Origin: Candidatus Omnitrophota bacterium
Lineage (GTDB): Bacteria > Omnitrophota > Gorgyraeia > Pluralincolimonadales > Pluralincolimonadaceae
NCBI GenBank assembly: GCA_041651455.1
Contig: JBAZJG010000001.1
Location: 77,173 to 141,172 of the forward strand
DNA length: 64,000 bases
Reading direction: 5' to 3'
Every line of letters starts with the position of its first letter. The first letter of the stretch is position 1. The notes under the pieces were generated by a model. That model did not search any database. It was not told the origin of the DNA and was given only the letters and a program-made list of their open reading frames with translations. A program made the position numbers and the translations under genes. Below, piece by piece: positions 22,373 through 64,000 of this stretch.

Positions 22373-23671
22373 ATGAAGATAACCGTGATAGGGGCAGGAT
22401 ATGTCGGGCTTGTGACGGCGGCGTGCCTTGCCGACCTCGGTAACGAAGTCACGTGCAACGATATCGACAGCGCGAAGATCGCCCAGCTGAACAGGGGCAA
22501 GATACCGATATACGAGCCGGGCCTCGACGACCTCATAAAGAGGAACCGCAGGGAGCACAGGCTTAAGTTCACGACAAACCTGAAAGGATGCGTAGAGTCG
22601 AGCGGGATAATCTTCATCGCGGTCGGCACGCCTCCGAAGGACAGCGGAGAGGCGGACCTAACGTATATAGAGGCCGTAGCCAGGGATATCGCGAAATACA
22701 TGAAGTCGTACCATCTCGTCGTCGAGAAATCAACGACGCCGGTCGAGACGGGGACCTGGATAAAGAAGACGCTCGAGGTGTATGCGCGCAAGAACGTGAA
22801 ATTCGACGTCGCGTCGAACCCGGAGTTCCTCAGGGAGGGCTCGGCGATAGGCGATTTCATGCATCCTGACAGGATAGTCATTGGCGTCGAGAGCAAGAAG
22901 GCGGAGCAGATGCTTACGGATCTCTACAGGCCTCTGGGCGCTGAGATAATCGTGACTAACATAAACAGCGCGGAGATAATCAAGCACGCGTCGAACTCGT
23001 TCCTCGCAACAAAGATATCGTTTATAAATGCCGTCGCGAACATCTGCGAAAAAGCCGGGGCCGATGTAGAGGAGGTCGCGCGGGGCATGGGGCTCGACAA
23101 GAGGATAGGCAGGTCGTTCCTTGACGCCGGCATAGGGTTCGGAGGGTTCTGTTTCCCGAAGGATATCGAAGCGTTCATACATATATCGGAGAAGATAGGG
23201 TATAATTTCGAATTGCTCAAGTCGGTTAAGAGGATAAACGAGGCGCAGAGGACACTGCTCGTTAAGAAGATAGAAAAGGCGGTCTGGAACATAAAAGGCA
23301 AGACGATAGCGATGCTCGGGCTGGCGTTCAAGCCGAACACCGACGATATGAGGTTCGCGCCGTCCTTGACGATAGCGGAGAAGCTCAGGCAGGAAGGTGC
23401 GCACATTAGAGCTTACGACCCGCAGTCGATGGCAAGGGCGAAGAAGCTGCCGGAGTTCAAGGGCGTGAAGTTCTGCGAAGGCCCGTACGAGGCAGTGAAG
23501 GGCGCGGACTGCACGGTCATCGTGACGGAATGGAACGAATTCAAGGAACTCGACCTTAAGAGGGCGAAGAAGCTGATGAGGCAGCCTGTCGTCGTAGACG
23601 GCAGGAACATATACGAGCCGAAGAAGATGAGGGAACTCGGGTTCAGGTACAGCTGCATCGGGAGGGCGTAG
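22373..23671 (+). CDS. ugd: UDP-glucose 6-dehydrogenase (UDP-glucose/GDP-mannose dehydrogenase family)
   Basis: The NAD-binding site MKITVIGAGYVGLV and a catalytic Cys region GFGGFCFPKD are present; 432 aa. Confidence 0.8.
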   Translation: MKITVIGAGYVGLVTAACLADLGNEVTCNDIDSAKIAQLNRGKIPIYEPGLDDLIKRNRREHRLKFTTNLKGCVESSGIIFIAVGTPPKDSGEADLTYIEAVARDIAKYMKSYHLVVEKSTTPVETGTWIKKTLEVYARKNVKFDVASNPEFLREGSAIGDFMHPDRIVIGVESKKAEQMLTDLYRPLGAEIIVTNINSAEIIKHASNSFLATKISFINAVANICEKAGADVEEVARGMGLDKRIGRSFLDAGIGFGGFCFPKDIEAFIHISEKIGYNFELLKSVKRINEAQRTLLVKKIEKAVWNIKGKTIAMLGLAFKPNTDDMRFAPSLTIAEKLRQEGAHIRAYDPQSMARAKKLPEFKGVKFCEGPYEAVKGADCTVIVTEWNEFKELDLKRAKKLMRQPVVVDGRNIYEPKKMRELGFRYSCIGRA

Positions 23672-23674
23672 AAG

Positions 23675-24121
23675 ATGATAGAAGGCGTGAAGATAAAGAA
23701 GCTGAAGGCGATCCCCGACGAGAGGGGCAAGCTCATGGAGATACTGCGCAACGACGACGATATATTCGAGAAGTTCGGCCAGGTATATTTTACGACCGCG
23801 TTCCCGGGCGTCGTCAAGGCGTGGCATTTCCACAAGAAACAGGACGACCATTTCGTCTGCCTGCAGGGGAAGATAAGGTTGGGGCTCTATGACGCGAGGG
23901 AGGGCTCGAAGACGAAGGGCGAGGTGAATGAGTTCATCCTTTCTCTCGAAGACCCTTTCATGGTAAAGATACCTAAGGGCGTGTACCACGGGTTCAAATG
24001 CATCGCGGACACCGAATCTATGATCCTGAACGTGCCCACCATGGCGTATAACCCGAAGGAGCCGGACGAGTTCAGGATCGACGCATACGATAACGACATA
24101 CCGTTCGACTGGAGGAAATGA
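23675..24121 (+). CDS. RmlC-like cupin, either a short-form dTDP-4-dehydrorhamnose 3,5-epimerase or an FdtA/WxcM-like 3,4-ketoisomerase
   Basis: This small cupin has the His motif KAWHFHKKQDDHFVCLQGK. It sits directly upstream of the rmlA/rmlB/rmlD homologs, where an rmlC is otherwise missing. Confidence 0.55.
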   Translation: MIEGVKIKKLKAIPDERGKLMEILRNDDDIFEKFGQVYFTTAFPGVVKAWHFHKKQDDHFVCLQGKIRLGLYDAREGSKTKGEVNEFILSLEDPFMVKIPKGVYHGFKCIADTESMILNVPTMAYNPKEPDEFRIDAYDNDIPFDWRK

Positions 24122-24861
24122 TGGCGCCGCGCGGGGTAATACTCGCGGGAGGCCTCGGAAAAAGGCTCGACCCGCTGACGAGGATCACCAACAAGCACCT
24201 TCTGCCCGTCTATGACAGGCCGATGATATATTACCCGATACAGACGCTCGTCGACGCGGGGATCAGGGACATTCTTATCGTGACCGGCGGCAATAACGCG
24301 GGGGATTTCCTGCGCCTGTTAGGAAACGGCTCCGAGTTCGGGCTTAACCACATCAACTACACGTACCAGAGGGGCGAGGGCGGGATCGCGGAGGCGCTGG
24401 GCCTCGCGAAACATTTCGCGCAGGGAGAGAAGATAGTCGTAATACTCGGCGATAACCTCATCGAGAAGAGCATAAAGAAGCATGTGGATGATTTCATAGG
24501 GCAGGCGGAAGGCGCGAAGATACTCCTTAAGAAGGTCCCGGACCCGCAGAGGTTCGGCGTCGCCGAGATCAAGGGCGGAAGGATAATAAGCATAAAGGAG
24601 AAGCCCCGGAAACCGAGGTCCGACCTTGCCGTTACGGGCATATATATGTACGATCCGAAGGTATTCGATATCATAAGGCCCCTGAAGCCGTCTAAGAGGG
24701 GCGAGCTCGAGATAACCGACGTGAATAACGAGTATATCAGGCTCGGAGAGATGACCTTCGACGTCCTCGACGGGTGGTGGACGGATTGCGGTACCTTCGA
24801 ATCGCTCTTCCGGGCGAACAAGCTTGTCGAAGAGGGCCTGAGAAGGAAAGGCGGCAGATAA
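24118..24861 (+). CDS. rmlA: Glucose-1-phosphate thymidylyltransferase (RmlA-type sugar-1-P nucleotidyltransferase, short form)
   Basis: The motif ILAGGLGKRLDPLTRITNKHLLPVYDRPMIYYPI is present. Confidence 0.75.
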   Translation: MMAPRGVILAGGLGKRLDPLTRITNKHLLPVYDRPMIYYPIQTLVDAGIRDILIVTGGNNAGDFLRLLGNGSEFGLNHINYTYQRGEGGIAEALGLAKHFAQGEKIVVILGDNLIEKSIKKHVDDFIGQAEGAKILLKKVPDPQRFGVAEIKGGRIISIKEKPRKPRSDLAVTGIYMYDPKVFDIIRPLKPSKRGELEITDVNNEYIRLGEMTFDVLDGWWTDCGTFESLFRANKLVEEGLRRKGGR

Positions 24862-25856
24862 TGAGGATACTTGTCACCGGAGGCGCCGGCTTCATCGGCT
24901 CGAACTTCATCAGGTACGTGCTCGGCAGGAACAAGAGCTGCGAGATAACGAACCTCGACAAGCTCAGCTATGCCGGGAACCCCGAGAACCTGAAGGATAT
25001 CGAAGGCAACCCGAACTACACGTTCGTCAAGGGCGACATATGCGACCATGACACCGTCGAGAAGGCGATGGACGGCTGCGATTACGTCGTGAACTTCGCG
25101 GCCGAAAGCCATGTAGACAGGTCGATCCATTCCGCCGACGAGTTCATACGCACGAACATCCTCGGGACTAACATCCTTCTCGAGAAGGCGAGGATGAAGG
25201 GCGTCACGAAGTTCATACAGATATCGACGGACGAGGTCTACGGCTCGATAGAAAACGGTTCATTTACGGAATCAAGCATGCTGGTCACGAACAGCCCCTA
25301 TTCGGCGAGCAAGGCGGCCGCGGAGCATATGTGCCACGCTTATTACGTGACCTTTGGCCTGCCGGTCGTTATAACGCGCAGTTCGAACAATTTCGGGCCT
25401 TACCAGTACCCGGAAAAATTCGTGGCTCTGGGCATAACGAACCTGCTCGAAGGGAAGAAGGTGCCGCTTTACGGAGACGGCAAGAACGTGCGCGACTGGC
25501 TCTTCGTTGAGGACAATTGCGACGGCATCTATTTCGTGCTGAACAAGGGCACGGCAGGGGAGGTATACAACATCGCCGGCGGTTACGAGATGATGAACAT
25601 CGAGATGGTGCACGCGATCCTTAAGGCGATGGGCAAAAATGATTCGATGGTCGAATACGTCAAGGACCGCCTCGGACACGACAGGAGGTATTCCCTCGAC
25701 GATTCCAAATTAAGGGCGATGGGATGGAAGCCCGGCCACACATTCGCGTCGGCGCTGGAGAAGACGGTCAAGTGGTACGGCGACAACCGCGACTGGTGGA
25801 TGAAGATAAAGCACAAGGACACATATAAGAGCTATTATAAGAAGCAATATAAGTGA
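24861..25856 (+). CDS. rmlB: dTDP-glucose 4,6-dehydratase
   Basis: [14 protein letters not shown] and the catalytic YSASKAA are present, and the TAATG overlaps the upstream stop. Confidence 0.88.
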   Translation: MRILVTGGAGFIGSNFIRYVLGRNKSCEITNLDKLSYAGNPENLKDIEGNPNYTFVKGDICDHDTVEKAMDGCDYVVNFAAESHVDRSIHSADEFIRTNILGTNILLEKARMKGVTKFIQISTDEVYGSIENGSFTESSMLVTNSPYSASKAAAEHMCHAYYVTFGLPVVITRSSNNFGPYQYPEKFVALGITNLLEGKKVPLYGDGKNVRDWLFVEDNCDGIYFVLNKGTAGEVYNIAGGYEMMNIEMVHAILKAMGKNDSMVEYVKDRLGHDRRYSLDDSKLRAMGWKPGHTFASALEKTVKWYGDNRDWWMKIKHKDTYKSYYKKQYK

Positions 25857-26725
25857 TGGGATCGAAGGTAATCGTAACCGGCGCTACCGGCATGCTGGGC
25901 CGCGATATCTGCCTGGCGTTCTCGGGGACGAATGAGGTAATAAGCGAGCGCGTTGATATAACCGACAGGGAAGCGTTCCTCGAATACGCGAGGTCTCACG
26001 CGCCGAATGCCATAATCAACACGGCCGCGATAGCCGATGTCGACCGCTGCGAGCGAGAGCCGGCGGAGGCGTTCCGGGTCAATGCGGAAGGCGCGAAGAA
26101 CGTCGCGGATGCCGCTTCGGCGGCAGGGGCGATACTAGTCCATATCAGCACCGATTATGTATTCGACGGAGAGAAGGCCGGGGACCGCGCCTATACGGAA
26201 GAGGACAGGACCGCGCCTTTAAGTGTTTACGGCAAATCGAAGTTAGCCGCGGAAGGATATGTCATTTCGGCCGGGTGCGCGTACGCGATTATCCGCTCAA
26301 GCTGGATGTTCGGCGCCGGAGGCAGGAATTTCGTCGACTCTGTAATTGAGGCGGCGCAGAAGTGCGGCAAGGTAAGGGCGATACAGGAAAAATACGGCGG
26401 ACCTACATATACGGCGGACTTAGCCGAGGCCATACGTGCGCTGTCCGCAAAGATGGCCGCAGGAGCCGCAAAACCGGGAATATATAATATATCGAACGCG
26501 GGCGTGTGCTCGCGTTACCAGTTCGCAAAGGAGATCCTTGAGTTCTGCGGCCTTTCCGCGGAGGTCGTCCCGATAACCGCGAAGGATGCGGGCGGGCCTG
26601 CAATAAGGCCAAGGATGACAGAGCTGGACAATTTGAAGATAGAAGGCGTCCTCGGGTACAGGTTGAGGCATTACAAGGAAGCGTTCAAAGAGTACATAAT
26701 AAGAAAGAGGGGGAATAAGGTCTGA
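25853..26725 (+). CDS. rmlD: dTDP-4-dehydrorhamnose reductase
   Basis: VIVTGATGMLG and YGKSKLAAE are present; the ~290 aa size is typical of RmlD. Confidence 0.82.
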   Translation: MMGSKVIVTGATGMLGRDICLAFSGTNEVISERVDITDREAFLEYARSHAPNAIINTAAIADVDRCEREPAEAFRVNAEGAKNVADAASAAGAILVHISTDYVFDGEKAGDRAYTEEDRTAPLSVYGKSKLAAEGYVISAGCAYAIIRSSWMFGAGGRNFVDSVIEAAQKCGKVRAIQEKYGGPTYTADLAEAIRALSAKMAAGAAKPGIYNISNAGVCSRYQFAKEILEFCGLSAEVVPITAKDAGGPAIRPRMTELDNLKIEGVLGYRLRHYKEAFKEYIIRKRGNKV

Positions 26726-28032: not shown

Positions 28033-28036
28033 ACTG

Positions 28037-28987
28037 ATGGCAAGATACCTTGTGACGGGCGGCGCGGGATTCATCGGCTCGAACATAACCGATGAGCTTG
28101 TCCGGCGTAAGCAGGAGGTCAGGGTCTTCGACGACCTCTCATCCGGAAGTAAGGACAACCTTAAGGCCGTGATGAATGATATAGAGTTCATAGAGGGAGA
28201 TATCAGGGACGCGACGCTGCTGAAGAAAGCGCTAAAAGGATGCGATTATGTCATTCACCAGGGGGCGCTGAGATCAGTCCCGAAGTCGATGACGAACCCC
28301 GGGCTTTATGACGATGTCAACGTTACGGGGACGCTGAACGTGCTGTCCGCAGCGGCCGAGAATAAGGTGAAGAGGCTCGTATTCGCGTCCTCAAGCTCGG
28401 TATACGGGGATTCCGAGAAACTTCCCCAGAGCGAGGACCAGATACCGCAGCCGGTCTCGCCGTACGCCGCGACAAAGCTCGCCGGCGAGCATTACTGCAG
28501 GGTTTTCGCGAAGTCATACGGGCTCGAGACGGTAGCCCTCAGGTATTTCAACGTGTTCGGGCCGCGCCAGTCGCTCGAATCCGAATACGCGGTAGTTATA
28601 CCGAAGTTCATAACATGCATACTCATGGGCGAGCAGCCGCCGGTCCACGGCGACGGGAAACAGAGCAGGGATTTCACGTATGTGGATAATGTCGTCGACG
28701 CGAACCTCACGGCCGCGACCCGCGAGGGGATATCCGGAGAGGTCTTCAATGTCGCCTGCGGGAAGGGATATAACCTGCTCGACCTCATAAGGATAATCAA
28801 CGACATCACGGGCAGGGATGTCCGTCCGAATTTCGAGGCCTCGCGCCCCGGCGACGTAAAACATACCCTTTCCGACATAACCAAGATGAAGAAACTGCTT
28901 AAACTCGACCCGAAGGTGGATTTTGTCCAGGGGCTGAGAAAGACGGTCGAATATTTTAGCGTGAAGCGCGCATCCGGGGGAAAATAA
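28037..28987 (+). CDS. NAD-dependent nucleotide-sugar 4-epimerase (WbpP/Gne/UDP-GlcA epimerase-like SDR)
   Basis: [13 protein letters not shown] and YAATKLAGE are present. Confidence 0.78.
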   Translation: MARYLVTGGAGFIGSNITDELVRRKQEVRVFDDLSSGSKDNLKAVMNDIEFIEGDIRDATLLKKALKGCDYVIHQGALRSVPKSMTNPGLYDDVNVTGTLNVLSAAAENKVKRLVFASSSSVYGDSEKLPQSEDQIPQPVSPYAATKLAGEHYCRVFAKSYGLETVALRYFNVFGPRQSLESEYAVVIPKFITCILMGEQPPVHGDGKQSRDFTYVDNVVDANLTAATREGISGEVFNVACGKGYNLLDLIRIINDITGRDVRPNFEASRPGDVKHTLSDITKMKKLLKLDPKVDFVQGLRKTVEYFSVKRASGGK

Positions 28988-28991
28988 TAAT

Positions 28992-31079: not shown

Positions 31080-31113
31080 TTGACACGACATAGGTTATAA
31101 CGTAAAATATAAT
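31080..31113 (+). promoter_or_regulatory. Putative sigma70-like promoter (TTGACA-17 nt-TAAAAT, with an overlapping TATAAT) for the internal regulatory module
   Basis: TTGACA lies at 31080-31085, TAAAAT at 31103-31108 and tataat at 31108-31113, all within an 81-nt AT-rich intergenic gap. Confidence 0.35.
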
Positions 31114-51828: not shown

Positions 51829-51829
51829 T

Positions 51830-58977: not shown

Positions 58978-60404
58978 CCGCTTCCACGAAAAGGTTGGTA
59001 GAGGAATGCGCGGGTTTGAACGCACGGACCGCGGGACGGCTCGGACCCGGGCTCGGATTCCTTGTATGGGCCTCCCCGACGGCATACAGGGACCCGGAAG
59101 ACACAAAACTCTGGCATCCGGTATATCTTGAAAAGCCGGTTGCGTATAAGCTTCCCGCGCTTTGCTACCTGTACCTGCGTTATGCGCTAATAGGGATGAT
59201 AAGGTGCTTCGCTTACAGGGGTTTCTCCTACGCATACAGGGAGAAAAGCGCGCCGGTGCTTATCGTGATGGCTGAGGAGATAACGGACCATTCGCAGGAG
59301 TTCAGGACCGATTATATAATCGAAGATACTTCGCATCAGGAAGATAAACTCGTCTTCTCGCGGACAAAAAACATCGGAAAGAACTATACTGCGCTGGGCT
59401 TATGGAAGAAGATAATGATCGGAGAAAAGCTGGAAATGTCGCTGATAGCCGATTTCATCCAAAGATTACTGGCAGGACGCCTGAGCATTGCATACCTGGA
59501 ATCGCTGGCAATATTCCACAGGTGGGTGATATCTTATTCGTGGTGTTTTCATTATGATTTCTACATGCTGGTGCATAAGGTGTTAAGCCGCGAACCTGCG
59601 GAATACCGTTCGGTATTCGTACCGCATGAGATGCATTTCTATTCGAGGATGGTCTGGAAAGCGGCTAAAGCGCTGGATGTAAAAGGCATTACCGCGCAGC
59701 ACGCGATGATATTGCCCGAGAAGCTGTGGTATTTCCCCGAGGCCGCCGAAGTAAAGGCCGGATGCGCCCTTCCGGATATATTCTATGTTTACAGCGAAGG
59801 GACTAAAGCCCTCCTAGGCAGGTATTACCCGGGCACGGACCTACGCCTTTGCTGCAGCCCGAGGTTCAGGAAATGGAAGGACTCCGGGCGGTTGGACAGG
59901 TCGCGCGCCGATGCGGTAACGTTCGTATGCGGGATAATGGAGTACGACACCGCGATAATCGTGAAGGCTGCAAAGGCATTGCTTGCGGAGGAATATAAGG
60001 ATAAGAGGAAGATCAGGCTTCGGCTGCATCCCGCCGGTATAATAGGCAGGGCGCAGAGGGAATGGATAAAAGCGGCTTCCGGGGCGGTCTCGGTAGAGCT
60101 GTCGAAAGTGCCGCTTAAGGAGGAGTTTGAGCTGTCGAGGCTGATAATAGGTTCGAATTCCGCGGTTCTGCAGGAGGCGGTGCTTTCGGGCGTGCCGGCG
60201 CTCGCCCTCACAAGCGGGGAATATATATGCGCGTCCGTCCTTCCCGATGAAGATAAATGGACCATAGACGTATCGCGGTTATCATGGAAACGGGTAGAAG
60301 AGCAATCCGCCAGGACGCCGGACCAGGACACGACACGCCGGTTCAGGGCAAACATGGGGCTCGATAACCCGGACCTGACCACGGCAACGGTGGCCGCGGC
60401 ATGA
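58968..60404 (+). CDS. Hypothetical 478-aa protein (candidate transferase). The ATG at 58968 overlaps the upstream stop, and the track start at 58734 is rejected.
   Basis: It is an in-operon ORF with no confidently recognised motif. Confidence 0.3.
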   Translation: MPLTASTKRLVEECAGLNARTAGRLGPGLGFLVWASPTAYRDPEDTKLWHPVYLEKPVAYKLPALCYLYLRYALIGMIRCFAYRGFSYAYREKSAPVLIVMAEEITDHSQEFRTDYIIEDTSHQEDKLVFSRTKNIGKNYTALGLWKKIMIGEKLEMSLIADFIQRLLAGRLSIAYLESLAIFHRWVISYSWCFHYDFYMLVHKVLSREPAEYRSVFVPHEMHFYSRMVWKAAKALDVKGITAQHAMILPEKLWYFPEAAEVKAGCALPDIFYVYSEGTKALLGRYYPGTDLRLCCSPRFRKWKDSGRLDRSRADAVTFVCGIMEYDTAIIVKAAKALLAEEYKDKRKIRLRLHPAGIIGRAQREWIKAASGAVSVELSKVPLKEEFELSRLIIGSNSAVLQEAVLSGVPALALTSGEYICASVLPDEDKWTIDVSRLSWKRVEEQSARTPDQDTTRRFRANMGLDNPDLTTATVAAA

Positions 60405-61330
60405 GACCGCTGGTCAGCGTCCAGGTCTGTTGTTACAATTCTGAAAAGTATCTAGCACAGACGCTCGAGAGCGTAGCGGCCCAGACGTTCAAGGGATGGG
60501 AGCTTGTGATCGTAAACGACGGTTCCACGGACGGGACCGAAGCGATAGTGGACGGTTTCGTGAAGAAGGGCCTGCCGATAACCTACCACAGCCAGCCAAA
60601 CAGCGGTTTCGCGGCCGCGAGGAACAGGGCGGTAGGGTTGTCGAAAGGCGATTGGATAGCAATACTCGACCACGACGATGTATGGAAGCCGGAAAAGCTT
60701 GACGTTCAGCTTAAAGCGGCCGAAAAATACCCGAAAGCGAAACTGCACTTCTCCAACTCGGAATGGTTCACCGACGACGGGAAGATAGCGAGGAATACGA
60801 TAGAGGACGGCAGGTTCTGCTCCGGCATAATAAAGGAGCCCTTCACTGCGTTGCTGTCCGAGGGTTGTTTCATAGACAGCGAGACGGCGCTGATAGACAA
60901 AAAGACGCTTGAAGCCCTCGGCGGTTTCAACGAGAAATACAAGTATATCGTGGATTACGACATGTTCCTAAGGATAGCGAAGCAGGACGCTGTCTGCTAT
61001 GAGGATAAGGTGCTTGCGGGATGGCGTATGCACCCGTCGCAGGCGACGAAGAAGCTTGAAGAGGAGATGACGAGGGAGTATATCGACCTTTTTGAGAAGG
61101 CGCTGAAGGAGAGCGGCCTGCCGGCGGAAGTAAAAGAGAAGGTGAAGAAGTCGATAGTTTACCACCTCAGCAACTACTCGCTTCTCATGCTGAAGAAGGA
61201 GGGAAAGAAGGCGTTCCTGCGCACGCTGCTTGGCGGGATAAGGAAGAGGCCGATGAGCCCTCACACGTACCTGAAGACGCTGCATACGTTCTGCAGGGCG
61301 TATATGGGCGAGGACGTATCGTCAAGATGA
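60401..61330 (+). CDS. GT2 family glycosyltransferase
   Basis: VSVQVCCYNSEKYL...LVIVNDGSTDGT and DHDD are present. Confidence 0.75.
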   Translation: MRPLVSVQVCCYNSEKYLAQTLESVAAQTFKGWELVIVNDGSTDGTEAIVDGFVKKGLPITYHSQPNSGFAAARNRAVGLSKGDWIAILDHDDVWKPEKLDVQLKAAEKYPKAKLHFSNSEWFTDDGKIARNTIEDGRFCSGIIKEPFTALLSEGCFIDSETALIDKKTLEALGGFNEKYKYIVDYDMFLRIAKQDAVCYEDKVLAGWRMHPSQATKKLEEEMTREYIDLFEKALKESGLPAEVKEKVKKSIVYHLSNYSLLMLKKEGKKAFLRTLLGGIRKRPMSPHTYLKTLHTFCRAYMGEDVSSR

Positions 61331-62835
61331 AGGTGCTGTTCATAAATTTCAATATCGGCTCCACACCGGGGATCAATAACGGTATCGCATGCCTATCTGC
61401 CGTCCTGAAGGAGAAAGGCCACAGCACGGCCCTGATATTCCTCTGCGAGCAGCTGGGTTACGGCTTCGACCCGGACAGGATAAAGAAGGACATATTGTCC
61501 GAGGCGCCCGATATCATAGGGCTGTCGCTTATAGAGACGCAGCTTAAGTATGCCAGGAAACTGATGGAAGGGCTCAGGGACTATTATAAGGGCATCGTCG
61601 TATGCGGCGGGCCGTACCCGACGATGGACCCGGAAGGCTGCCTCGCGATAGATGGCGTCGACGCCGTATGCGTCGGAGAGGGAGAGGACGCGCTCGCCGA
61701 ACTTGCCGAAGCGGTAGAGTCCGGCAGGAAGTACGACGGCATAAGGAACATATGGGTAAGGAAGGGCAATGCGGTCATAAAGAACAAGCTGCGGCCGTTC
61801 AAGAGCTTGTATGACCTGCCTCCGGACGATAAGGAGCTCTTTGACCTGGACAGTATACTGCCGCTGAAGAATTACCAGCTCGAGACGATGATAGGCAGGG
61901 GCTGCGTATACCAGTGCAGTTACTGCATAAACGACTCTTATGTGAGGAAATACCGCGATCTTTGCGAACGCAAGGTCGGGCTCAACGATTACATAAGGTT
62001 CAAGGACGCCGGCAGGGCGGCCGCGGAGATAAAGGATACTGTTACGAAACATCCGCAGATAAAGAAGATAGCTTTTATAGATGATAATTTCATAACCGAC
62101 GAGAAATACCTCGCCAAATTATGCGGGGAATATAAAAAGACCGTGGACCTGCCTTTCATGTGCAACGTAAACCCCGCATCCTATAACGAAAGGAAGGCGA
62201 GGATACTGAAAGAGTCCGGGTGCGATGACGTGAGGTTCGGCATCGAGAGCGGCAGCGAGCGCGTCAAGAAAGAGGTAATGAAACGCCCCGTCCCGAACAG
62301 GAGCGTATTGGAGGCCTTCAGGATAAATAAAGAGCTGGATATGATGACCAGCTCATTCAATATGATAGGGCTTCCGACGGAGACGAAAGAGGAGGTCCTC
62401 GAGACGCTGAAGCTCAACGCGCGGATAATGCCGGACACGGTGAAGGTCATGACTTTCTACCCGTTCAAGAACACGCCGATTTACGGGTTCTGCGAGGAGC
62501 TCGGGCTTATCGATACGGAAGCGAAGGAAGAGCTAGATAATTACGATACGTTCACGTGCCTGAAGTTTCCCGATGAGTACCGCCTGTTTCTGAGGAAAAT
62601 GCAGGTCTGCTTCAACTGGTACCTGAACAGCATGCTGGGAAATGAGGCGTCCGGGGCGTACAGGGAGCTCGTGGAGAAGGCGGAGGGCATGTCCGGCGCG
62701 GAATGGGACGGCTATGATTTTTGCGCGGAGGACAGGAAGATATCCGATTTTATGAAGGCGAAGAAACTGGCGCATTACACGAAATATATGAACAGGAGCC
62801 TCGCGGTCAAATGGCCGAGCAGGCACCTGGAATGA
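61327..62835 (+). CDS. B12-binding (class B) radical SAM protein
   Basis: An N-terminal B12-binding fold (VLFINFNIGS...CGGPYPT) and the motif CVYQCSYC are present. Confidence 0.75.
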   Translation: MKVLFINFNIGSTPGINNGIACLSAVLKEKGHSTALIFLCEQLGYGFDPDRIKKDILSEAPDIIGLSLIETQLKYARKLMEGLRDYYKGIVVCGGPYPTMDPEGCLAIDGVDAVCVGEGEDALAELAEAVESGRKYDGIRNIWVRKGNAVIKNKLRPFKSLYDLPPDDKELFDLDSILPLKNYQLETMIGRGCVYQCSYCINDSYVRKYRDLCERKVGLNDYIRFKDAGRAAAEIKDTVTKHPQIKKIAFIDDNFITDEKYLAKLCGEYKKTVDLPFMCNVNPASYNERKARILKESGCDDVRFGIESGSERVKKEVMKRPVPNRSVLEAFRINKELDMMTSSFNMIGLPTETKEEVLETLKLNARIMPDTVKVMTFYPFKNTPIYGFCEELGLIDTEAKEELDNYDTFTCLKFPDEYRLFLRKMQVCFNWYLNSMLGNEASGAYRELVEKAEGMSGAEWDGYDFCAEDRKISDFMKAKKLAHYTKYMNRSLAVKWPSRHLE

Positions 62836-62860
62836 GCGCAGAAAAAAAGAGAGGTGCCGA

Positions 62861-63805
62861 ATGAAGATAAGCGTGGTCATACCCGTATATCAGGGAGGCC
62901 GTTCCGTGGGCAGGCTGGTCGATGAGCTTGTCAGGAACCTGCACGGGAAAGACGGCCTCGAAATCGTGCTTGTCAACGACGGTTCCACCGATAACAGCCA
63001 CGAGGAATGCCTTGCGGCGTTCAGGAAGCACATGTCTATAGTCAAATATACGAAGTTAGCGAAAAATTTCGGGGAGCATAACGCGGTCCTTGCGGGATTG
63101 AACGAGGCGTCGGGGGACTATGCAGTGATAATCGACGACGATTTCCAGAACCCGCCCGAAGAGATAAGGAAGATGGTCGATAAGGCCGTAGAGGGCGGTT
63201 ATGACGTCGTCTACAGCTATTACGACAGGAAGCGCCACTCGTTATTAAGGAACCTCGGCAGCAGCTTCAACGACCTCGTCGCGCGGTACCTGCTCGATAA
63301 ACCGAAGGACCTCTACCTCTCGAGCTTCAAATGCCTAAACAGGTTCACCGTGGGCGAGATAATAAAGTACAAGGGGCCGTATCCCTACATAGACGGGCTG
63401 GTGCTCAGGACGACCCGGAACATAGGCAAGGTGCTCGTAAAGCACGACAAGAGGAGGGAGGGCCGCTCCGGTTATACGCTTAGGAGGCTCATAAGGCTAT
63501 GGCTTAACATGTTCGTGAATTTCTCGGTCTATCCGTTGAGGGTCAGTACGTTCATCGGGTTCATATTCTTCCTGATAGGGGCCGTATTGAGCTTGCAGGC
63601 GGTCATCGAGCGGCTGGTCAACCCGTCGGTCCCCATGGGGATAACATCGATATTTGTCGCAATACTAATGTTCTCGGGATTACAGATGCTCATGCTGGGA
63701 GTCATAGGGGAATACCTGGGCAAGCAGTTCATGGCCAATAACCAGACGCCGCAATATGTCATACGGGAAACGCACGCCGCTAAAAAAGAGGAAGGTGGCA
63801 GATGA
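62861..63805 (+). CDS. GT2 polyprenyl-phosphate sugar synthase (ArnC/GtrB/DPM1-like), with two C-terminal TM helices
   Basis: ISVVIPVYQGG...LVNDGSTDNS and DDDFQNPPE are followed by a C-terminal membrane anchor. Confidence 0.75.
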   Translation: MKISVVIPVYQGGRSVGRLVDELVRNLHGKDGLEIVLVNDGSTDNSHEECLAAFRKHMSIVKYTKLAKNFGEHNAVLAGLNEASGDYAVIIDDDFQNPPEEIRKMVDKAVEGGYDVVYSYYDRKRHSLLRNLGSSFNDLVARYLLDKPKDLYLSSFKCLNRFTVGEIIKYKGPYPYIDGLVLRTTRNIGKVLVKHDKRREGRSGYTLRRLIRLWLNMFVNFSVYPLRVSTFIGFIFFLIGAVLSLQAVIERLVNPSVPMGITSIFVAILMFSGLQMLMLGVIGEYLGKQFMANNQTPQYVIRETHAAKKEEGGR

Positions 63806-64000
63806 AAAGACGCATGCCGGACGGGTTCTTCCGCGGAAAGAACGTGCTGATAACCGGGGGTATGGGTTTTGTGGGCAGCAACCTCGCCATAGCTCTCGTA
63901 TCTAAAGGAGCCAAGGTAACGCTTGTCGACTCGATGGTAAGGGATACGGGAGGCAACCTTTTCAACATTAAGGATATCGCCGAGAAAGTCCTCATCAACT
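63802..64000 (+). CDS. NAD-dependent epimerase/dehydratase, 3'-truncated by the window end
   Basis: VLITGGMGFVGSNLA is present, and the ATG at 63802 overlaps the upstream TGA. Confidence 0.65.
   Translation, partial: MKRRMPDGFFRGKNVLITGGMGFVGSNLAIALVSKGAKVTLVDSMVRDTGGNLFNIKDIAEKVLIN

What the first reader, a model, noticed from the sequence alone, without database searches (positions are those of the whole stretch)
22373..64000. Glycan super-locus with five radical-SAM enzymes (three B12-binding class B and two SPASM/twitch) that has not been described as a system
One co-directional, translationally coupled gene array contains the following:
- three cobalamin-binding radical SAM proteins (48415..50061, 57481..58977, 61327..62835);
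- two radical-SAM/SPASM proteins (37967..38968, 40304..41638);
- three SAM methyltransferases (38970..40304 C-terminus, 43205..43864, 50058..51104);
- an Ldh2-type dehydrogenase.

All of these sit among nucleotide-sugar, ulosonic-acid, glycosyltransferase and Wzm/Wzt export genes. Class B radical SAM enzymes typically C-methylate unactivated carbons. SPASM/twitch enzymes such as BtrN oxidise or epimerise sugars anaerobically. This density of radical chemistry in an ABC-transporter-dependent polysaccharide locus points to a heavily C-/O-methylated or otherwise radical-tailored sugar, probably an ulosonic acid, with no described pathway.
Basis: partly seen in the sequence, partly recalled or inferred. 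Interest (0 to 1): 0.9.

Follow-up and report, generated by a model that had tools for sequence, protein, structure and literature searches.

The report
Radical-enzyme-rich surface sugar gene cluster
A gene cluster of more than 50 kb in an uncultured anaerobic bacterium builds and exports a cell-surface polysaccharide and carries six radical-SAM enzymes; these sit in cassettes, conserved across many uncultured phyla, beside genes that make and CMP-activate sialic-acid/Kdo-like acidic sugars, which points to radical tailoring of those sugars that nobody has characterised.

Summary
Window 32363-63805 is one + strand array of 28 genes with gaps of at most 25 nt. A UpxY-type antiterminator and a nucleotide-sugar block precede it.

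The array holds three B12-domain radical SAM proteins, one full-SPASM and one twitch-type radical SAM protein, all with intact CxxxCxxC. It also holds five CMP-transferase-like domains, NeuB, a KdsC-like phosphatase, KdsB, methyltransferases, GT2s and Wzm/Wzt. The locus runs at least 10 kb past the window and contains a sixth radical SAM gene. None of the five in-window radical SAM proteins reaches a curated NCBIfam cutoff.

It is a mosaic of cassettes rather than one system, and two of them recur elsewhere:
- The SPASM enzyme travels with NeuB (30/39 loci), a CMP-transferase (31/39) and a TylF-type methyltransferase.
- B12 enzyme 57481 travels with an aldolase-MptE fusion (16/25) and a KdsB-like gene (15/25) in Planctomycetota, Omnitrophota, Desulfobacterales and methanogens.

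No precursor peptide, RRE or lipid genes were found.

Best reading: radical tailoring of CMP-activated Kdo/Kdn-type acidic sugars of an exported surface glycan. Methylation, substrates and products are inferred only; the B12b model resembles AprD4 as well as it resembles methylases. No description was found in the searchable literature.

The parts
20086..22356 (+). LptD-like outer-membrane protein (context, immediately upstream)
   Evidence: Pfam LptD_N 21.0 bits against cutoff 20.4, N-terminal hydrophobic segment. No other Pfam hit.
22373..23671 (+). UDP-glucose/GDP-mannose dehydrogenase (Ugd-type)
   Evidence: Three UDPG_MGDP_dh domains, E=6e-69
23675..26725 (+). RmlC-like (23675-24121), RmlA (24118-24861), RmlB (24861-25856), RmlD (25853-26725): dTDP-6-deoxyhexose block
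   Evidence: Pfam dTDP_sugar_isom, NTP_transferase, GDP_Man_Dehyd/Epimerase, RmlD_sub_bind. Start of RmlB taken.
26725..31051 (+). Second NDP-sugar dehydrogenase (26725), epimerase/dehydratase (28037), DegT aminotransferase (28992), epimerase/dehydratase (30086 or 30119)
   Evidence: Pfam
31080..31108 (+). Near-consensus sigma-70-type promoter TTGACA-17-TAAAAT in the 81-nt gap before the regulators
   Evidence: 11 of 12 matches. This is a consensus match only.
31133..31744 (+). Winged-helix regulator, MarR_EPS-like
   Evidence: Pfam HTH_24. NCBIfam MarR_EPS 69 bits, below the cutoff of 88.
31753..32262 (+). UpxY-family NusG paralogue (operon-specific antiterminator)
   Evidence: NCBIfam antiterm_UpxY 108.3 bits, above the cutoff of 100. 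Pfam NusG.
32363..35044 (+). DegT aminotransferase (32363), GFO/IDH/MocA dehydrogenase (33478), hexapeptide acyltransferase (34472): WbpB/E/D-like 3-amino-sugar trio
   Evidence: Pfam. The pathway analogy comes from my own knowledge of WbpB/WbpE/WbpD.
35066..37238 (+). Wzm (ABC-2 permease, 35066-35950) and Wzt (ATPase with a 174-aa C-terminal extension, 35955-37238)
   Evidence: Pfam ABC2_membrane and ABC_tran. Five hydrophobic segments in Wzm. Best NCBIfam hits are TagH/Wzt types, below cutoff. Wzt_C is weak: E=0.0018, 18.7 bits against cutoff 30.4.
37225..37980 (+). GDSL/SGNH esterase or acyltransferase
   Evidence: Pfam Lipase_GDSL_2
37967..38968 (+). Twitch-type radical SAM enzyme (SPASM1)
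   Evidence: Radical_SAM 77.8 bits, SPASM 35.9 bits. In numbering from 37937: C49/C53/C56 plus C250-x17-C268...C312-x2-C315. Best solved relative is BtrN, E=1.5e-8, followed by GDGT-MAS and BlsE. No NCBIfam cutoff is reached.
38970..40304 (+). Fusion of a PseF-like cytidylyltransferase domain and a class I SAM methyltransferase
   Evidence: Pfam Methyltransf_11/25 plus a weak CTP_transf_3 hit. NCBIfam PseF 39.5 bits over 219 residues.
40304..41638 (+). Full-SPASM radical SAM enzyme (SPASM2) with a conserved 95-aa C-terminal extension
   Evidence: Pfam Radical_SAM, Fer4_12, SPASM. C32/36/39 plus seven auxiliary Cys are invariant in 29 homologues. Best solved relatives are PqqE at 9e-15 and BlsE at 1e-8. 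Linked to NeuB, CMP-transferase and TylF in 39 loci.
41656..42339 (+). Divergent CMP-sugar synthetase-like protein (CTP2)
   Evidence: Pfam CTP_transf_3, E=1.4e-7. NCBIfam PseF 43 bits, below cutoff.
42336..43205 (+). NeuB-type ulosonic acid (phosphate) synthase without a SAF domain
   Evidence: Pfam NeuB 215 bits. NCBIfam NeuB 223 bits, below the cutoff of 400.
43205..43864 (+). TylF-family O-methyltransferase
   Evidence: Pfam TylF 76.6 bits. Orthologues at 47-74% identity lie next to SPASM2 homologues.
43861..44379 (+). KdsC/Kdn-9-phosphate phosphatase-type HAD
   Evidence: NCBIfam KDN-9-P phosphatase 104.5 bits (cutoff 180) and KdsC subfamily 97.9 bits (cutoff 107)
44373..46193 (+). Orphan soluble 606-aa protein (unk606), possible transferase
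   Evidence: No Pfam or PDB sequence hit. The C-terminal motif resembles GT-B by eye only. No hhalign link to the other orphan proteins.
46197..48415 (+). GFO/IDH/MocA sugar dehydrogenase (46197-47375) and Ldh_2-family 2-oxo-acid dehydrogenase (47372-48415)
   Evidence: Pfam. NCBIfam hits below cutoffs. The pair is conserved with CTP3 and GT2-CTP in Ca. Scalindua locus L018.
48415..50061 (+). B12-domain radical SAM enzyme B12a
   Evidence: Pfam B12-binding 63.8 bits, Radical_SAM 63.5 bits. C219/223/226. Best NCBIfam hits are BchE at 145 bits (cutoff 481) and HpnJ at 123 bits (cutoff 578).
50058..51104 (+). Class I SAM methyltransferase (348 aa)
   Evidence: Pfam Methyltransf_23/11
51091..53182 (+). 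CTP3 (PseF-like N-terminal half, 51091-51828) and a GT2 + CTP_transf_3 fusion (51830-53182)
   Evidence: Pfam. NCBIfam PseF 86 and 66 bits, below cutoff. The pair is conserved at 58-68% identity in L008, L009 and L018.
53182..55032 (+). Orphan GT-B-fold protein (unk616)
55044..56768 (+). DRE-TIM (HMGL-like) aldolase fused to an MptE/Maf-like C-terminal domain
   Evidence: Pfam HMGL-like 79.7 bits. PDB 3dxi, a putative aldolase, at 8e-39, then 4-hydroxy-2-oxovalerate aldolases. The RDG and HxH motifs are conserved. MptE-like E=0.002 here and 5e-7 in homologue L016, both below cutoff.
56765..57499 (+). KdsB-type CMP-ulosonate synthetase
   Evidence: NCBIfam NF009905 288.8 bits (cutoff 255) and TIGR00466 156.8 bits (cutoff 155.2)
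57481..58977 (+). B12-domain radical SAM enzyme B12b
   Evidence: Pfam. C214/218/221 invariant in 34 homologues. AF2 pLDDT 90; Foldseek top hits are TsrM, MgmA, AprD4, OxsB, TokK and CysS. Linked to the aldolase fusion and the KdsB-like gene.
58968..60404 (+). Orphan 478-aa protein (unk478), remote relative of the 617-aa putative transferase family found next to B12b homologues
   Evidence: hhalign probability 95%, E=3e-8 over 224 columns. No Pfam or PDB sequence hit.
60401..61330 (+). GT2 glycosyltransferase (GT2a)
   Evidence: Pfam Glycos_transf_2 118 bits. Homologues in 15/31 B12b loci, 58-59% identity in L004-L006.
61327..62835 (+). B12-domain radical SAM enzyme B12c
   Evidence: Pfam B12-binding 70.5 bits, Radical_SAM 72 bits. 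C193/197/200. Best NCBIfam hits are MJ_1487 at 98 bits (cutoff 251) and PhpK at 93 bits (cutoff 600). Orthologues at 60-65% identity in Omnitrophota L004 and Planctomycetales L008.
62861..63805 (+). GT2 glycosyltransferase (GT2b); the locus continues beyond 64000
   Evidence: Pfam. Continuation seen on L001 and L114.

Best explanation
This is an ABC-transporter-dependent (Wzm/Wzt) cell-surface glycan locus. It is read as one very long operon under a UpxY-type NusG antiterminator.

Its distal 30+ kb is a mosaic of at least four sugar cassettes. Each cassette contains enzymes that build an acidic or otherwise unusual sugar, one or two radical SAM enzymes plus a conventional SAM methyltransferase that tailor it, a cytidylyltransferase that activates it, and a large orphan transferase.

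- Cassette A (37225-46193, low GC). NeuB-type synthase plus KdsC-type phosphatase plus CMP-transferase would make a Kdn/Kdo-like 3-deoxy-2-ulosonic acid from a sugar phosphate and PEP. The twitch enzyme (BtrN-like) and the full-SPASM enzyme would oxidise, epimerise or otherwise rework it by H-atom abstraction, and the TylF-type enzyme would O-methylate it.
- Cassette B (46197-55032). GFO and Ldh_2 dehydrogenases, B12a, a methyltransferase, two PseF-like nucleotidyltransferase domains and a GT-B-fold protein.
- Cassette C (55044-63805). A DRE-TIM pyruvate-aldolase fusion would make a second 2-keto-3-deoxy acid. KdsB would convert it to the CMP-sugar. B12b and B12c would modify an unactivated carbon, most probably by methylation and possibly on the cytidylylated substrate as Fom3 does. 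unk478 and the GT2s would transfer it.
- Cassette D lies beyond the window.

Shown: gene content, intact cofactor motifs, folds, operon structure, and conserved gene linkage in other genomes.

Inferred: every substrate, the reaction types, and that the products end up in the exported glycan (O-antigen, capsule or S-layer glycan).
For: - Domains and cutoffs.
- Intact CxxxCxxC and auxiliary Cys.
- Tight coupling, with gaps of at most 25 nt.
- UpxY above its curated cutoff.
- SPASM2 family, in 39 metagenome loci of at least 8 kb: NeuB 30, CMP-transferase-like 31, either of these 37, TylF 20 (11 directly downstream), KdsC-like HAD 12, at least one B12 radical SAM 17.
- B12b family, in 25 orthologue-level loci from Planctomycetota, Omnitrophota, Desulfobacterales, Victivallales and Methanomicrobia/Methanocalculus archaea: aldolase fusion 16, KdsB-like 15. 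HAD, an LdpA-like Fe-S protein, an HpcH aldolase, a 617-aa putative transferase and GT2a also recur.
- The same aldolase fusion + KdsB-like (41% identity) + HAD sits in a KpsM/T capsule cluster of cultured Leisingera caerulea without any radical SAM. The radical enzyme is therefore an add-on to a sugar pathway.
- The best solved relatives of the twitch enzyme are sugar enzymes, BtrN and BlsE.
- The B12b model has the B12-radical-SAM fold.
- unk616 has a GT-B fold, and unk478 is remotely related to the transferase-like family that accompanies B12b elsewhere.
- An LptD-like gene lies directly upstream.
Against: - No chemistry is known for any of these radical SAM families. All fall far below every curated NCBIfam cutoff.
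- The window lacks the HAD, Fe-S and HpcH partners that accompany the aldolase/KdsB/B12b module elsewhere. Cassette C may therefore be a trimmed variant, or may depend on genes elsewhere.
- The B12b fold is as close to AprD4, a non-methylating diol dehydratase, as it is to methylases.
- unk616 resembles UDP-GlcNAc 2-epimerases as much as it resembles transferases.
- The NeuB, HAD, CTP2 and CTP3 hits are below equivalog cutoffs, so the sugar could be something other than Kdn or Kdo.
- Linkage was tested for only two of the six radical SAM families.
- The source is a MAG-level contig whose taxonomy is uncertain.
Confidence: 0.55

Rival explanations
1. The setting is the same (sugar tailoring in a glycan locus), but the B12-domain enzymes are not methylases. 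They would carry out other radical chemistry on the sugars: AprD4-type 1,2-diol dehydration or deoxygenation, OxsB-type ring contraction, or HpnJ/BchE-type cyclisation. The adjacent conventional methyltransferases would supply all the methyl groups.
For: - Foldseek gives AprD4, a sugar diol dehydratase with a B12-like domain, the best TM scores for the B12b model: 0.67-0.69 normalised to the query and 0.73-0.75 normalised to the target.
- The A1 profile hits OxsB and AprD4 at E=2e-16 and 3e-16, but TokK only at 1e-5.
- The best NCBIfam matches of B12a and B12b are BchE and HpnJ, which are not methylases.
- B12a is followed directly by a conventional methyltransferase and B12d is preceded by two.
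Against: - Most characterised B12-domain radical SAM enzymes are methylases, according to the review PMC12931638.
- TsrM and MgmA/QCMT are the top Foldseek and PDB-sequence hits by E-value.
- Pfam B12-binding scores lie well above the gathering cutoff.
Confidence: 0.2
2. The cytidylyltransferase-like proteins activate a non-sugar substituent, such as a hydroxy-acid, polyol or amino-alcohol phosphate, as a CDP/CMP derivative. The radical SAM enzymes tailor that substituent, or the finished polymer or lipid-linked intermediate. TagF-like GT-B enzymes then attach it through phosphodiester bonds. This would be teichoic-acid-like decoration rather than ulosonic-acid tailoring.
For: - Four of the five CTP_transf_3 domains are divergent and match only the nucleotide-binding half of the profile.
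- The Ldh_2, GFO and HMGL-type enzymes are typical of small 2-oxo or hydroxy-acid metabolism.
- A related orphan family gives a faint Glyphos_transf hit, E=0.2.
- Fom3 is a precedent for a B12 radical SAM enzyme acting on a cytidylylated non-sugar (my own knowledge; listed).
Against: - 56765 passes curated KdsB cutoffs.
- NeuB and a KdsC-type phosphatase are present and are the most strongly linked partners of SPASM2.
- No PEP mutase, glycerol-3-phosphate or ribitol-phosphate genes were seen in any Pfam scan.
- The top unk616 matches are 2-epimerases and ordinary GT-B glycosyltransferases, not TagF.
Confidence: 0.15
3. The SPASM/twitch and B12 radical SAM proteins are peptide (RiPP) or cofactor maturases, or lipid-modifying enzymes (ladderane, hopanoid or GDGT type), that merely lie inside a glycan locus.
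For: - The best NCBIfam and PDB sequence hits of SPASM2 are PqqE, NirJ2 and AhbD. Those of B12a include the ladderane B12 family at 103 bits and RiPP C-methylases.
- SPASM2 has a conserved C-terminal extension that by eye recalls a PqqD-like fold.
- The source may be a planctomycete.
Against: - All those matches lie 3- to 6-fold below the family cutoffs.
- The radical SAM core starts at residue 32 (SPASM2) or residue 39 from ATG 37967 (SPASM1), which leaves no N-terminal RRE.
- Gaps to the flanking genes are at most 17 nt, so no precursor ORF fits.
- None of 16 C-terminal extensions hits PqqD, even at E up to 10.
- No fatty-acid, polyketide, hopanoid or tetrapyrrole genes were found in 64 kb or in the related loci.
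- Neighbours in 37/39 and 18/25 loci are NeuB, CMP-transferase, aldolase or KdsB-like genes.
Confidence: 0.04

Closest known systems
Fom3 with the Fom1 cytidylyltransferase domain (fosfomycin pathway): a class B radical SAM C-methylase acting on a cytidylylated substrate
   Same: A B12-domain radical SAM gene lies immediately next to, and is translationally coupled with, a cytidylyltransferase: KdsB 56765 then B12b 57481, a pairing seen in 15/25 related loci. This suggests the CMP moiety serves as the handle for the radical enzyme.
   Different: There is no PEP mutase or other phosphonate gene. The partner is a KdsB-type sugar-acid activating enzyme. Fom3 is not among the curated families that are hit, and the PhpK and SD_1168 P-methylase models score 84-96 bits against cutoffs of 575-600. 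The setting is a surface glycan, not an antibiotic.
GenK, GenD1, Fms7 (aminoglycosides) and MoeK5 (moenomycin): class B radical SAM sugar C-methyltransferases
   Same: The domain architecture is the same (B12-binding + radical SAM), and the expected job is the same: methylating unactivated sugar carbons. These enzymes are listed as the sugar-acting members in the 2026 review.
   Different: Those enzymes act on pseudo-oligosaccharide antibiotics in actinomycetes. Here the genes sit in Wzm/Wzt polysaccharide loci of anaerobic uncultured phyla and archaea, next to CMP-sugar genes. No sequence-level membership could be shown. That review does not contain the words polysaccharide, glycan or sugar.
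BtrN, BlsE and AprD4: twitch-type and related radical SAM enzymes acting on sugars
   Same: BtrN is the best solved relative of SPASM1 (E=1.5e-8) and BlsE is also hit. The spacing of the four auxiliary Cys (C-x17-C...C-x2-C) matches the BtrN twitch pattern as I recall it. AprD4 is the best structural match of the B12b model by TM score.
   Different: Sequence similarity is confined to the radical SAM core (residues 42-159). There are no 2-deoxystreptamine or nucleoside-antibiotic genes. The partner genes are NeuB, CMP-transferase and methyltransferase genes.
Kdn pathway of Bacteroides thetaiotaomicron (Kdn-9-P synthase, Kdn-9-P phosphatase, CMP-Kdn synthetase) and the KdsA/KdsC/KdsB Kdo pathway
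   Same: A NeuB-family synthase without a SAF domain, a KdsC/Kdn-9-P-phosphatase-type HAD (the best NCBIfam hit is the Kdn-9-P phosphatase model) and CMP-transferases lie side by side.
   Different: All three score below equivalog cutoffs. The cassette additionally carries two radical SAM/SPASM enzymes, a TylF O-methyltransferase and a CMP-transferase-methyltransferase fusion. Cassette C replaces KdsA/NeuB with a DRE-TIM aldolase-MptE fusion.
ABC-transporter-dependent O-polysaccharide systems with an extended Wzt that recognises a terminal cap (E. coli O9a WbdD methyl/phosphate cap; Klebsiella O12 and Raoultella WbbB beta-Kdo cap)
   Same: A Wzm/Wzt pair in which Wzt has a 174-aa C-terminal extension. 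Methyltransferases and ulosonic-acid genes in the same operon could supply a terminal cap.
   Different: The Wzt_C match is weak (18.7 bits against cutoff 30.4). No WbdD or WbbB homologue was identified. Cap function is pure inference.
UpxY/RfaH-controlled long polysaccharide operons (Bacteroides capsule loci)
   Same: A UpxY-family NusG paralogue above its curated cutoff lies directly upstream of a co-directional operon of more than 40 kb.
   Different: The lineage is different (Planctomycetota-like MAG). No UpxZ partner was recognised; a MarR_EPS-like protein precedes the UpxY gene instead.

Membership tests
Class B (cobalamin-dependent) radical SAM enzymes | N-terminal Rossmann-type B12-binding domain followed by a radical SAM TIM-barrel domain | tested here: met
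   Pfam PF02310 and PF04055 both score above gathering cutoffs for 48415, 57481 and 61327. The B12b AF2 model aligns over its whole length with TsrM, MgmA, OxsB, TokK and CysS.
Class B (cobalamin-dependent) radical SAM enzymes | CxxxCxxC motif ligating the radical SAM [4Fe-4S] cluster | tested here: met
   C219/223/226, C214/218/221 and C193/197/200. The motif is invariant in 34 B12b homologues.
Class B (cobalamin-dependent) radical SAM enzymes | Actual cobalamin binding and methyl transfer through methylcobalamin | not testable with these tools
   AprD4 has the same domain but binds no cobalamin, and it is among the best structural matches. Biochemistry is needed.
Characterised class B subfamilies (BchE, HpnJ, HpnP/R, PhpK, SD_1168, ladderane B12, QCMT/MJ_0865, RiPP C-methylases, BzaD, AprD4, TsrM) | Score at or above the curated NCBIfam cutoff | tested here: not met
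   Best scores: B12a 145 against 481 (BchE); B12b 146 against 481 (BchE); B12c 98 against 251 (MJ_1487).
SPASM / twitch radical SAM enzymes | C-terminal Cys-rich domain: seven Cys for two auxiliary clusters (SPASM), or a truncated set for one cluster (twitch) | tested here: met
   SPASM2 has C248, C267, C285 and C320-x2-C323-x5-C329-x3-C333, all invariant in 29 sequences. SPASM1 has C250-x17-C268, C312-x2-C315 only. Pfam SPASM scores are 35.9 and 21.9 against a cutoff of 21.5.
RiPP (peptide) radical SAM maturases | Adjacent precursor peptide gene and an RRE/PqqD-like recognition domain | tested here: not met
   Gaps around both SPASM genes are at most 17 nt or are overlaps. The cores start at residues 32 and 39, so there is no N-terminal RRE. 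No PqqD hit was found in 16 C-terminal extensions at E up to 10. All peptide-maturase NCBIfam models score far below cutoff.
Wzm/Wzt ABC-transporter-dependent glycan export | ABC-2 permease plus a Wzt/TagH-type ATPase in the glycan operon, with no Wzx/Wzy | tested here: met
   PF01061 and PF00005. The top NCBIfam hits are TagH and Wzt, below cutoffs. No Wzx/Wzy-type Pfam hit was found in 22-64 kb. The Wzt_C domain is inconclusive.
NeuB / Kdn-type ulosonic acid pathway | NeuB-family synthase, sugar-acid phosphate phosphatase and CMP-sugar synthetase encoded together | tested here: inconclusive
   All three domain types are present and co-occur in related loci. However, each scores below its equivalog cutoff: NeuB 223 against 400, Kdn-9-P phosphatase 104.5 against 180, PseF 43 against 206.
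KdsB (CMP-Kdo synthetase) | Score above curated KdsB cutoffs | tested here: met
   56765-57499 scores 288.8 on NF009905 (cutoff 255), 277 on NF003952 (cutoff 193) and 156.8 on TIGR00466 (cutoff 155.2). Substrate specificity for Kdo, as opposed to a Kdo-like acid, is not testable here.
Fom3-like system (radical methylation of a cytidylylated phosphonate) | PEP mutase and phosphonate pathway genes in the cluster | tested here: not met
   No PEP_mutase or phosphonate-family hit was found in any Pfam scan of the 39 genes. Only the logic of the system (cytidylyltransferase next to a B12 radical SAM enzyme) is shared.
UpxY-family antiterminators | NusG-like protein above the NF033644 cutoff, upstream of a polysaccharide operon | tested here: met
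   108.3 bits against a cutoff of 100. The gene lies 100 nt upstream of the 28-gene array.

The most novel reading that the evidence does not exclude
Anaerobic bacteria and archaea from many uncultured phyla share portable cassettes in which radical SAM enzymes rework CMP-activated 3-deoxy-2-ulosonic acids. One family is a full-SPASM enzyme tied to NeuB and TylF. Another is a B12-domain enzyme tied to KdsB-like genes. The products would be C-methylated, deoxygenated or skeleton-rearranged Kdo/Kdn-type sugars not yet seen in any glycan. One of these sugars would be made by a previously unrecognised, KdsA/NeuB-independent route that starts from a DRE-TIM pyruvate aldolase fused to an MptE/Maf-like domain.
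Probability: 0.35. Interest if true: 0.8.

Novelty: new variant of a known kind. Interest (0 to 1): 0.62.

Why it matters
Radical SAM tailoring of sugars is known almost only from antibiotic pathways (BtrN, AprD4, GenK, MoeK5, BlsE). Ulosonic acids (Kdo, Kdn, sialic, legionaminic and pseudaminic acids) are thought to be diversified by conventional enzymes.

If the cassettes found here really modify CMP-ulosonates, three things follow:
- They define new radical SAM reactions and new acidic sugars on the surfaces of abundant uncultured anaerobes: Omnitrophota, Planctomycetota (including the anammox Ca. Scalindua), Desulfobacterales and methanogens.
- They give enzymologists compact 5-6 gene cassettes to reconstitute.
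- They point to a possible third route to 2-keto-3-deoxy sugar acids.

The result also shows that the 'super-locus' is a modular mosaic. This matters for annotation, because at present every one of these genes is labelled only 'radical SAM protein', 'BchE-like', 'YgiQ' or 'hypothetical'.

Tried and rejected
- Curated-family placement of all five in-window radical SAM proteins with NCBIfam: none reaches a cutoff.
- PDB sequence searches of the three orphan proteins: nothing. Pfam at E up to 10 gave only faint hints: DUF6716, Glyphos_transf, PMT_2.
- Paralogy among the orphan proteins by BLASTP: none. hhalign linked unk616, unk478 and two orphan families from other loci, but not unk606.
- Phosphonate (Fom3/PhpK-like) reading: rejected, because no PEP mutase is present.
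- RiPP reading: rejected, because there is no room for a precursor, no RRE and no PqqD hit.
- Phage origin or carriage of the SPASM2 cassette: only 23-28% generic radical SAM hits in IMG/VR.
- Riboswitches (cobalamin, SAM), other Rfam families and tRNAs in the window: none.
- Repeats or IS-like boundaries around the low-GC segment: only short chance matches.
- Literature (eight searches and four papers opened): no paper links radical SAM enzymes to NeuB/KdsB-type pathways or polysaccharide loci beyond bare annotation. One example of bare annotation is the C. jejuni HS:19 capsule cluster (PMC8743553). The heavily methylated Kuenenia S-layer O-glycan (PMC5088730) is context only; that paper makes no gene link.
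- Plasmid search for SPASM2: only PqqE at 26% identity.
- Names of aldolase-fusion relatives: only '4-hydroxy 2-oxovalerate aldolase' or nothing.
- Not done: neighbourhood surveys for B12a, B12c, B12d and SPASM1 as separate queries; a phylogeny with GenK, Fom3 or HpnP sequences, which were not available offline.

Full report

Yes. Between 22373 and 63805 every credible gene is on the + strand. The long minus-strand ORFs overlap + strand genes that have strong Pfam hits, so I treat them as shadow ORFs.

- B12-binding + Radical_SAM at 48415-50061, 57481-58977 and 61327-62835.
- Radical_SAM + SPASM at 37937/37967-38968 and 40304-41638.
- Methyltransferase domains at 38970-40304 (C-terminal half), 43205-43864 (TylF family) and 50058-51104.
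- Ldh_2 at 47372-48415.
- Wzm/Wzt at 35066-37238, NeuB at 42336 and three GT2 genes.

All scores are above Pfam gathering thresholds. The SPASM hit of 40304 is marginal (21.9 against 21.5), but the Cys pattern backs it.

Every radical SAM protein keeps CxxxCxxC.
- The 40304 protein has the full seven-Cys SPASM signature, invariant in 29 homologues.
- The 37967 protein has only C-x17-C...C-x2-C. As I recall it, this is the spacing of the single auxiliary cluster of BtrN (twitch).

From DegT 32363 to GT2 62861 the 28 genes are separated by at most 25 nt, and many overlap by 1-4 nt. Only two larger gaps exist:
- 81 nt before the regulator pair at 31133/31753. This gap contains a near-consensus sigma-70-type promoter.
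- 100 nt before 32363.

**2. What surrounds it?**

Upstream (1-20 kb) lie housekeeping genes: miaB, miaA, hflX, hrcA-grpE-dnaK-dnaJ, accD, two GAF-GGDEF proteins and a ROK kinase. So this is chromosomal DNA. The 756-aa protein just before the locus has an LptD_N hit at the cutoff, which fits a diderm with LPS transport.

A contig 95-98% identical to the locus is binned as 'uncultured Planctomycetia bacterium' (L002). A 93%-identical fragment is binned as Dehalococcoidales (P0009). The taxonomy is therefore not secure.

The protein at 31753 is a UpxY-family NusG paralogue above its curated cutoff. This is the kind of factor that drives read-through of very long polysaccharide operons.

The locus does not stop at the window end. 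Contigs carrying identical proteins (L001, L114) continue with, in order:
- an epimerase, a DegT and two methyltransferases;
- a fourth B12-domain radical SAM gene (489 aa, CxxxCxxC present);
- a 594-aa protein with at least 9 hydrophobic segments and a faint PMT_2 hit;
- another NTP-transferase/epimerase/RmlC-like set and a GT2.

The locus is thus at least about 52 kb long with at least six radical SAM genes.

GC falls from about 0.55 to 0.42-0.45 between about 34.5 and 47 kb. The Wzm-to-unk606 segment therefore has a different history from the rest.

**3. Family placement of the radical SAM proteins.**

None of the five in-window proteins reaches any curated NCBIfam cutoff. Best score against cutoff:

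| Protein | Best NCBIfam model | Score / cutoff |
|---|---|---|
| 37967 | tungsten-cofactor maturase | 92 / 380 |
| 40304 | NirJ2 | 119 / 500 |
| 48415 | BchE | 145 / 481 |
| 57481 | BchE | 146 / 481 |
| 61327 | MJ_1487 | 98 / 251 |

The four B12-domain proteins are only 22-29% identical to each other.

Against solved structures by sequence:
- The twitch protein's best hit is BtrN (1.5e-8), then GDGT-MAS and BlsE.
- The SPASM protein's best hits are PqqE (9e-15) and BlsE.
- The B12b profile hits QCMT/MgmA (9CCB, identified through PMC12931638), OxsB, AprD4 and TsrM.

An AF2 model of B12b (pLDDT 90) matches TsrM, MgmA, AprD4, OxsB, TokK and CysS over its whole length. AprD4 gives the best TM scores. 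Membership in the B12-domain radical SAM class is solid. The reaction type is open.

**4.

*(a) B12b family.*
- There are 195 relatives at E < 1e-20 among the 8000 candidates that were scored. All are unnamed or generically named, and all come from uncultured anaerobes.
- A scan of species-representative genomes returned 32 loci.
- Searching all window proteins against them by tblastn shows that 16 of 25 loci at orthologue level (at least 37% identity) carry the 574-aa HMGL-like protein and 15 carry the KdsB-like gene. These are usually within 3 kb and on the same strand.
- Unbiased clustering of neighbours adds an HpcH/HpaI aldolase (13 loci), an LdpA-like 4Fe-4S protein (11), a HAD_2 phosphatase (14), a 617-aa orphan family with a faint 'putative glycosyltransferase' DUF6716 hit (14), GT2a (16) and epimerases (18).
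- The hosts span Planctomycetota (including Ca. Scalindua), Omnitrophota, Desulfobacterales, Victivallales, Halanaerobium, Hydrothermarchaeota and Methanomicrobia (including cultured Methanocalculus taiwanensis).
- Archaea have no LPS. The KdsB-like gene in this module is therefore not simply the housekeeping Kdo enzyme.

*(b) SPASM2 family.*
- There are 480 relatives at E < 1e-10. A metagenome scan found 347 loci and kept 80.
- In the 39 loci of at least 8 kb: NeuB is present in 30, a CMP-transferase-like gene in 31, one or the other in 37, the TylF-type methyltransferase in 20 (11 immediately downstream, 47-74% identity), a KdsC-like HAD in 12, and at least one B12-domain radical SAM in 17.

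Both families therefore pass the test of conserved linkage to glycan/ulosonic genes. I did not run separate surveys for B12a, B12c, B12d or the twitch protein. B12c orthologues (60-65% identity) do sit next to GT2a in an Omnitrophota locus and a Planctomycetales locus (L004, L008).

**5. The non-radical partners.**

- **56765** passes curated KdsB cutoffs.
- **55044** is a DRE-TIM metallolyase.
  - The D-x-T-x-RDG and HxH motifs are conserved in 17 homologues.
  - Its nearest structures are a Bacteroides 'putative aldolase' (3dxi) and 4-hydroxy-2-oxovalerate (pyruvate) aldolases.
  - Its C-terminal 200 residues carry a GNGP...GANN...GMDG pattern and a sub-threshold MptE-like (PF01973) match: E = 0.002 here and 5e-7 in a homologue. 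This is the domain found in Maf flagellin nonulosonic-acid transferases.
  - The fusion family is large: 1041 cluster representatives at E <= 1e-30. It is named only 'aldolase'.
  - In cultured, aerobic Leisingera caerulea the same fusion, a KdsB-like gene (41% identical to 56765) and a HAD lie in a KpsM/T-type capsule cluster with no radical SAM gene.
  - I infer that aldolase + (HAD) + KdsB-like is a self-standing pathway to a CMP-activated 2-keto-3-deoxy acid, and that anaerobes add the B12-domain enzyme as a tailoring step.
- **Cassette A.** A NeuB without a SAF domain, a KdsC/Kdn-9-P-phosphatase-type HAD and CMP-transferases mirror the Kdn/Kdo logic of sugar phosphate + PEP, dephosphorylation and CMP activation. 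All score below equivalog cutoffs.
- **Ldh_2.** Ldh_2 enzymes act on 2-oxo acids. Ldh_2 recurs next to CTP_transf_3 genes in four SPASM2 loci and, together with GFO2, CTP3 and GT2-CTP, in Ca. Scalindua.
- **unk616.** It has only 67 relatives, all 'hypothetical'. Its AF2 model (pLDDT 91) is a GT-B fold with helical insertions. The best matches are UDP-GlcNAc 2-epimerases/NeuC and GT-B glycosyltransferases, and the longest alignment is with TarL.
- **Other orphans.** hhalign links unk616, unk478, the 617-aa family and a 535-aa family from other loci through their C-terminal domain at 94-95% probability. unk606 remains unplaced.

**6. Mechanism proposed.**

The locus encodes a Wzm/Wzt-exported surface glycan. 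This could be an O-antigen, given the LptD-like neighbour, but a capsule or S-layer glycan cannot be excluded.

Common sugars would come from the proximal block: the Rml genes, two NDP-sugar dehydrogenases, and a WbpB/E/D-like amino-sugar trio.

The distal part adds several unusual acidic sugars, one per cassette:
- **Cassette A.** A NeuB-made ulosonate would be reworked by a BtrN-like twitch enzyme and a SPASM enzyme (H-abstraction leading to oxidation, epimerisation or decarboxylation-type chemistry), O-methylated by TylF, CMP-activated, and transferred, perhaps by unk606.
- **Cassette B.** Oxidoreductions by GFO and Ldh_2, B12a plus a methyltransferase, activation by CTP3 and GT2-CTP, and the GT-B protein.
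- **Cassette C.** An aldolase-made 2-keto-3-deoxy acid would be activated by KdsB, modified by B12b and B12c at unactivated carbon, and transferred by unk478 and the GT2s.

The tight KdsB-B12b pairing suggests that the radical enzyme may use the cytidylylated sugar, as Fom3 uses cytidylyl-hydroxyethylphosphonate (my own knowledge).

The extended Wzt suggests that one of these residues might be the chain-terminating cap read by the transporter, as with the methyl/phosphate or beta-Kdo caps of known systems (my own knowledge). The Wzt_C evidence is weak.

All substrate and product statements are inference.

**7. Rivals.**

- **Non-methylating radical chemistry by the B12-domain enzymes.** This is a serious alternative (AprD4, OxsB, BchE and HpnJ resemblance).
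- **Teichoic-acid-like decoration with CDP/CMP-activated non-sugar units.** This is possible for cassette B and for the divergent CTP_transf_3 proteins. It is weakened by the curated KdsB match and by the NeuB linkage.
- **Peptide, cofactor or lipid maturase readings.** These fail the tests available: no precursor space, no RRE, no PqqD signal, no lipid or tetrapyrrole genes, and sugar genes as the conserved neighbours.

**8. Known or new?**

Within the searchable library I found no paper that ties radical SAM enzymes to NeuB/KdsB-type pathways or that characterises one in a polysaccharide locus.
- The 2026 review of B12-dependent radical SAM enzymes contains no occurrence of 'polysaccharide', 'glycan' or 'sugar'. 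Its list of uncharacterised methylases includes the antibiotic sugar methylases GenK, GenD1, Fms7 and MoeK5, plus Fom3.
- Unstudied radical SAM genes in capsule clusters have been noted in passing, for example in C. jejuni HS:19.
- Anammox S-layer glycans are known to be unusually methylated, without a genetic explanation.

The kinds of parts are known: an ABC-dependent glycan locus, ulosonate pathways and sugar-acting radical SAM enzymes. Their combination into conserved cassettes acting on ulosonate pathways is not described. I therefore rate it a new variant of a known kind.

**9. Verdict.**

Interest is 0.62. The finding offers a concrete, widely distributed and testable set of cassettes for new radical SAM sugar chemistry, and a candidate third route to keto-deoxy sugar acids. 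It rests entirely on gene context and fold.

Noticed in passing
window 55044-56768; L016 6103-7821; L120 (Leisingera caerulea plasmid NZ_CP081095.1) 11986-14988: The 'HMGL-like' gene is a fusion of a DRE-TIM pyruvate-aldolase domain with an MptE/Maf-like domain (sub-threshold PF01973). The fusion family has about 1000 cluster representatives and no functional name. In cultured Leisingera it sits with a KdsB-like gene and a HAD in a capsule cluster that has no radical SAM gene. This may be a KdsA/NeuB-independent route to a CMP-activated keto-deoxy sugar acid.
   Followed up: partly
L002 5784-7589 compared with window 55032-55044: A genome 95-98% identical over this locus (Planctomycetia MAG CAZYUB010000002.1) has an extra MsbA-type ABC exporter (609 aa) inserted between unk616 and the aldolase. 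It also has different genes after B12c. The locus therefore varies between near-identical strains, as surface-glycan loci often do.
   Followed up: partly
window 34500-47000: GC content drops to 0.42-0.45, against 0.55 on either side. The drop covers Wzm, Wzt, GDSL, both SPASM-type genes, NeuB, TylF, HAD and unk606, which suggests a horizontally acquired block. No repeats or mobile-element genes were found at its edges.
   Followed up: partly
window 20086-22356: A 756-aa protein with an N-terminal hydrophobic segment and an LptD_N hit at the cutoff (21.0 against 20.4) lies directly upstream of the glycan locus. It is a possible LptD, which would favour an LPS O-antigen reading and a diderm host.
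   Followed up: no
window 40304-41638, residues 345-444: SPASM2 and its relatives carry a conserved C-terminal extension (motif LRFRKExGF) of unknown function. By eye it recalls a PqqD/RRE-type fold, but none of 16 members hits PqqD in Pfam.
   Followed up: partly
L013, L019, L020 (Methanomicrobia; L020 is cultured Methanocalculus taiwanensis P2F9704a): Methanogen genomes carry the full module: aldolase fusion, LdpA-like Fe-S protein, HAD, HpcH aldolase, KdsB-like gene and B12 radical SAM. It lies next to GT2 and RmlC-like genes. Methanocalculus taiwanensis is a cultured organism in which the product could be looked for.
   Followed up: no
window 3483-5519: A MiaB-type methylthiotransferase (UPF0004 + Radical_SAM) is fused to TPR repeats and a C-terminal SPOR (peptidoglycan-binding) domain. 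This is an unusual architecture for a tRNA-modifying enzyme.
   Followed up: no
window 22-3360: An 1112-aa ORF with no Pfam hit lies in low-GC DNA (0.41-0.43), at the edge of the window and ahead of the housekeeping genes.
   Followed up: no
window 23675-24121 and homologues in 6-7 related loci: A short (148-156 aa) RmlC-like cupin hits dTDP_sugar_isom, FdtA and, oddly, Polysacc_synt_C. It recurs next to B12b-type modules in bacteria and archaea.
   Followed up: no
P0009 compared with L002: Nearly identical copies of B12b are binned in a Dehalococcoidales MAG (93% identity, partial) and in a Planctomycetia MAG (98%). Either the binning is wrong or the locus has been transferred recently between phyla.
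   Followed up: no
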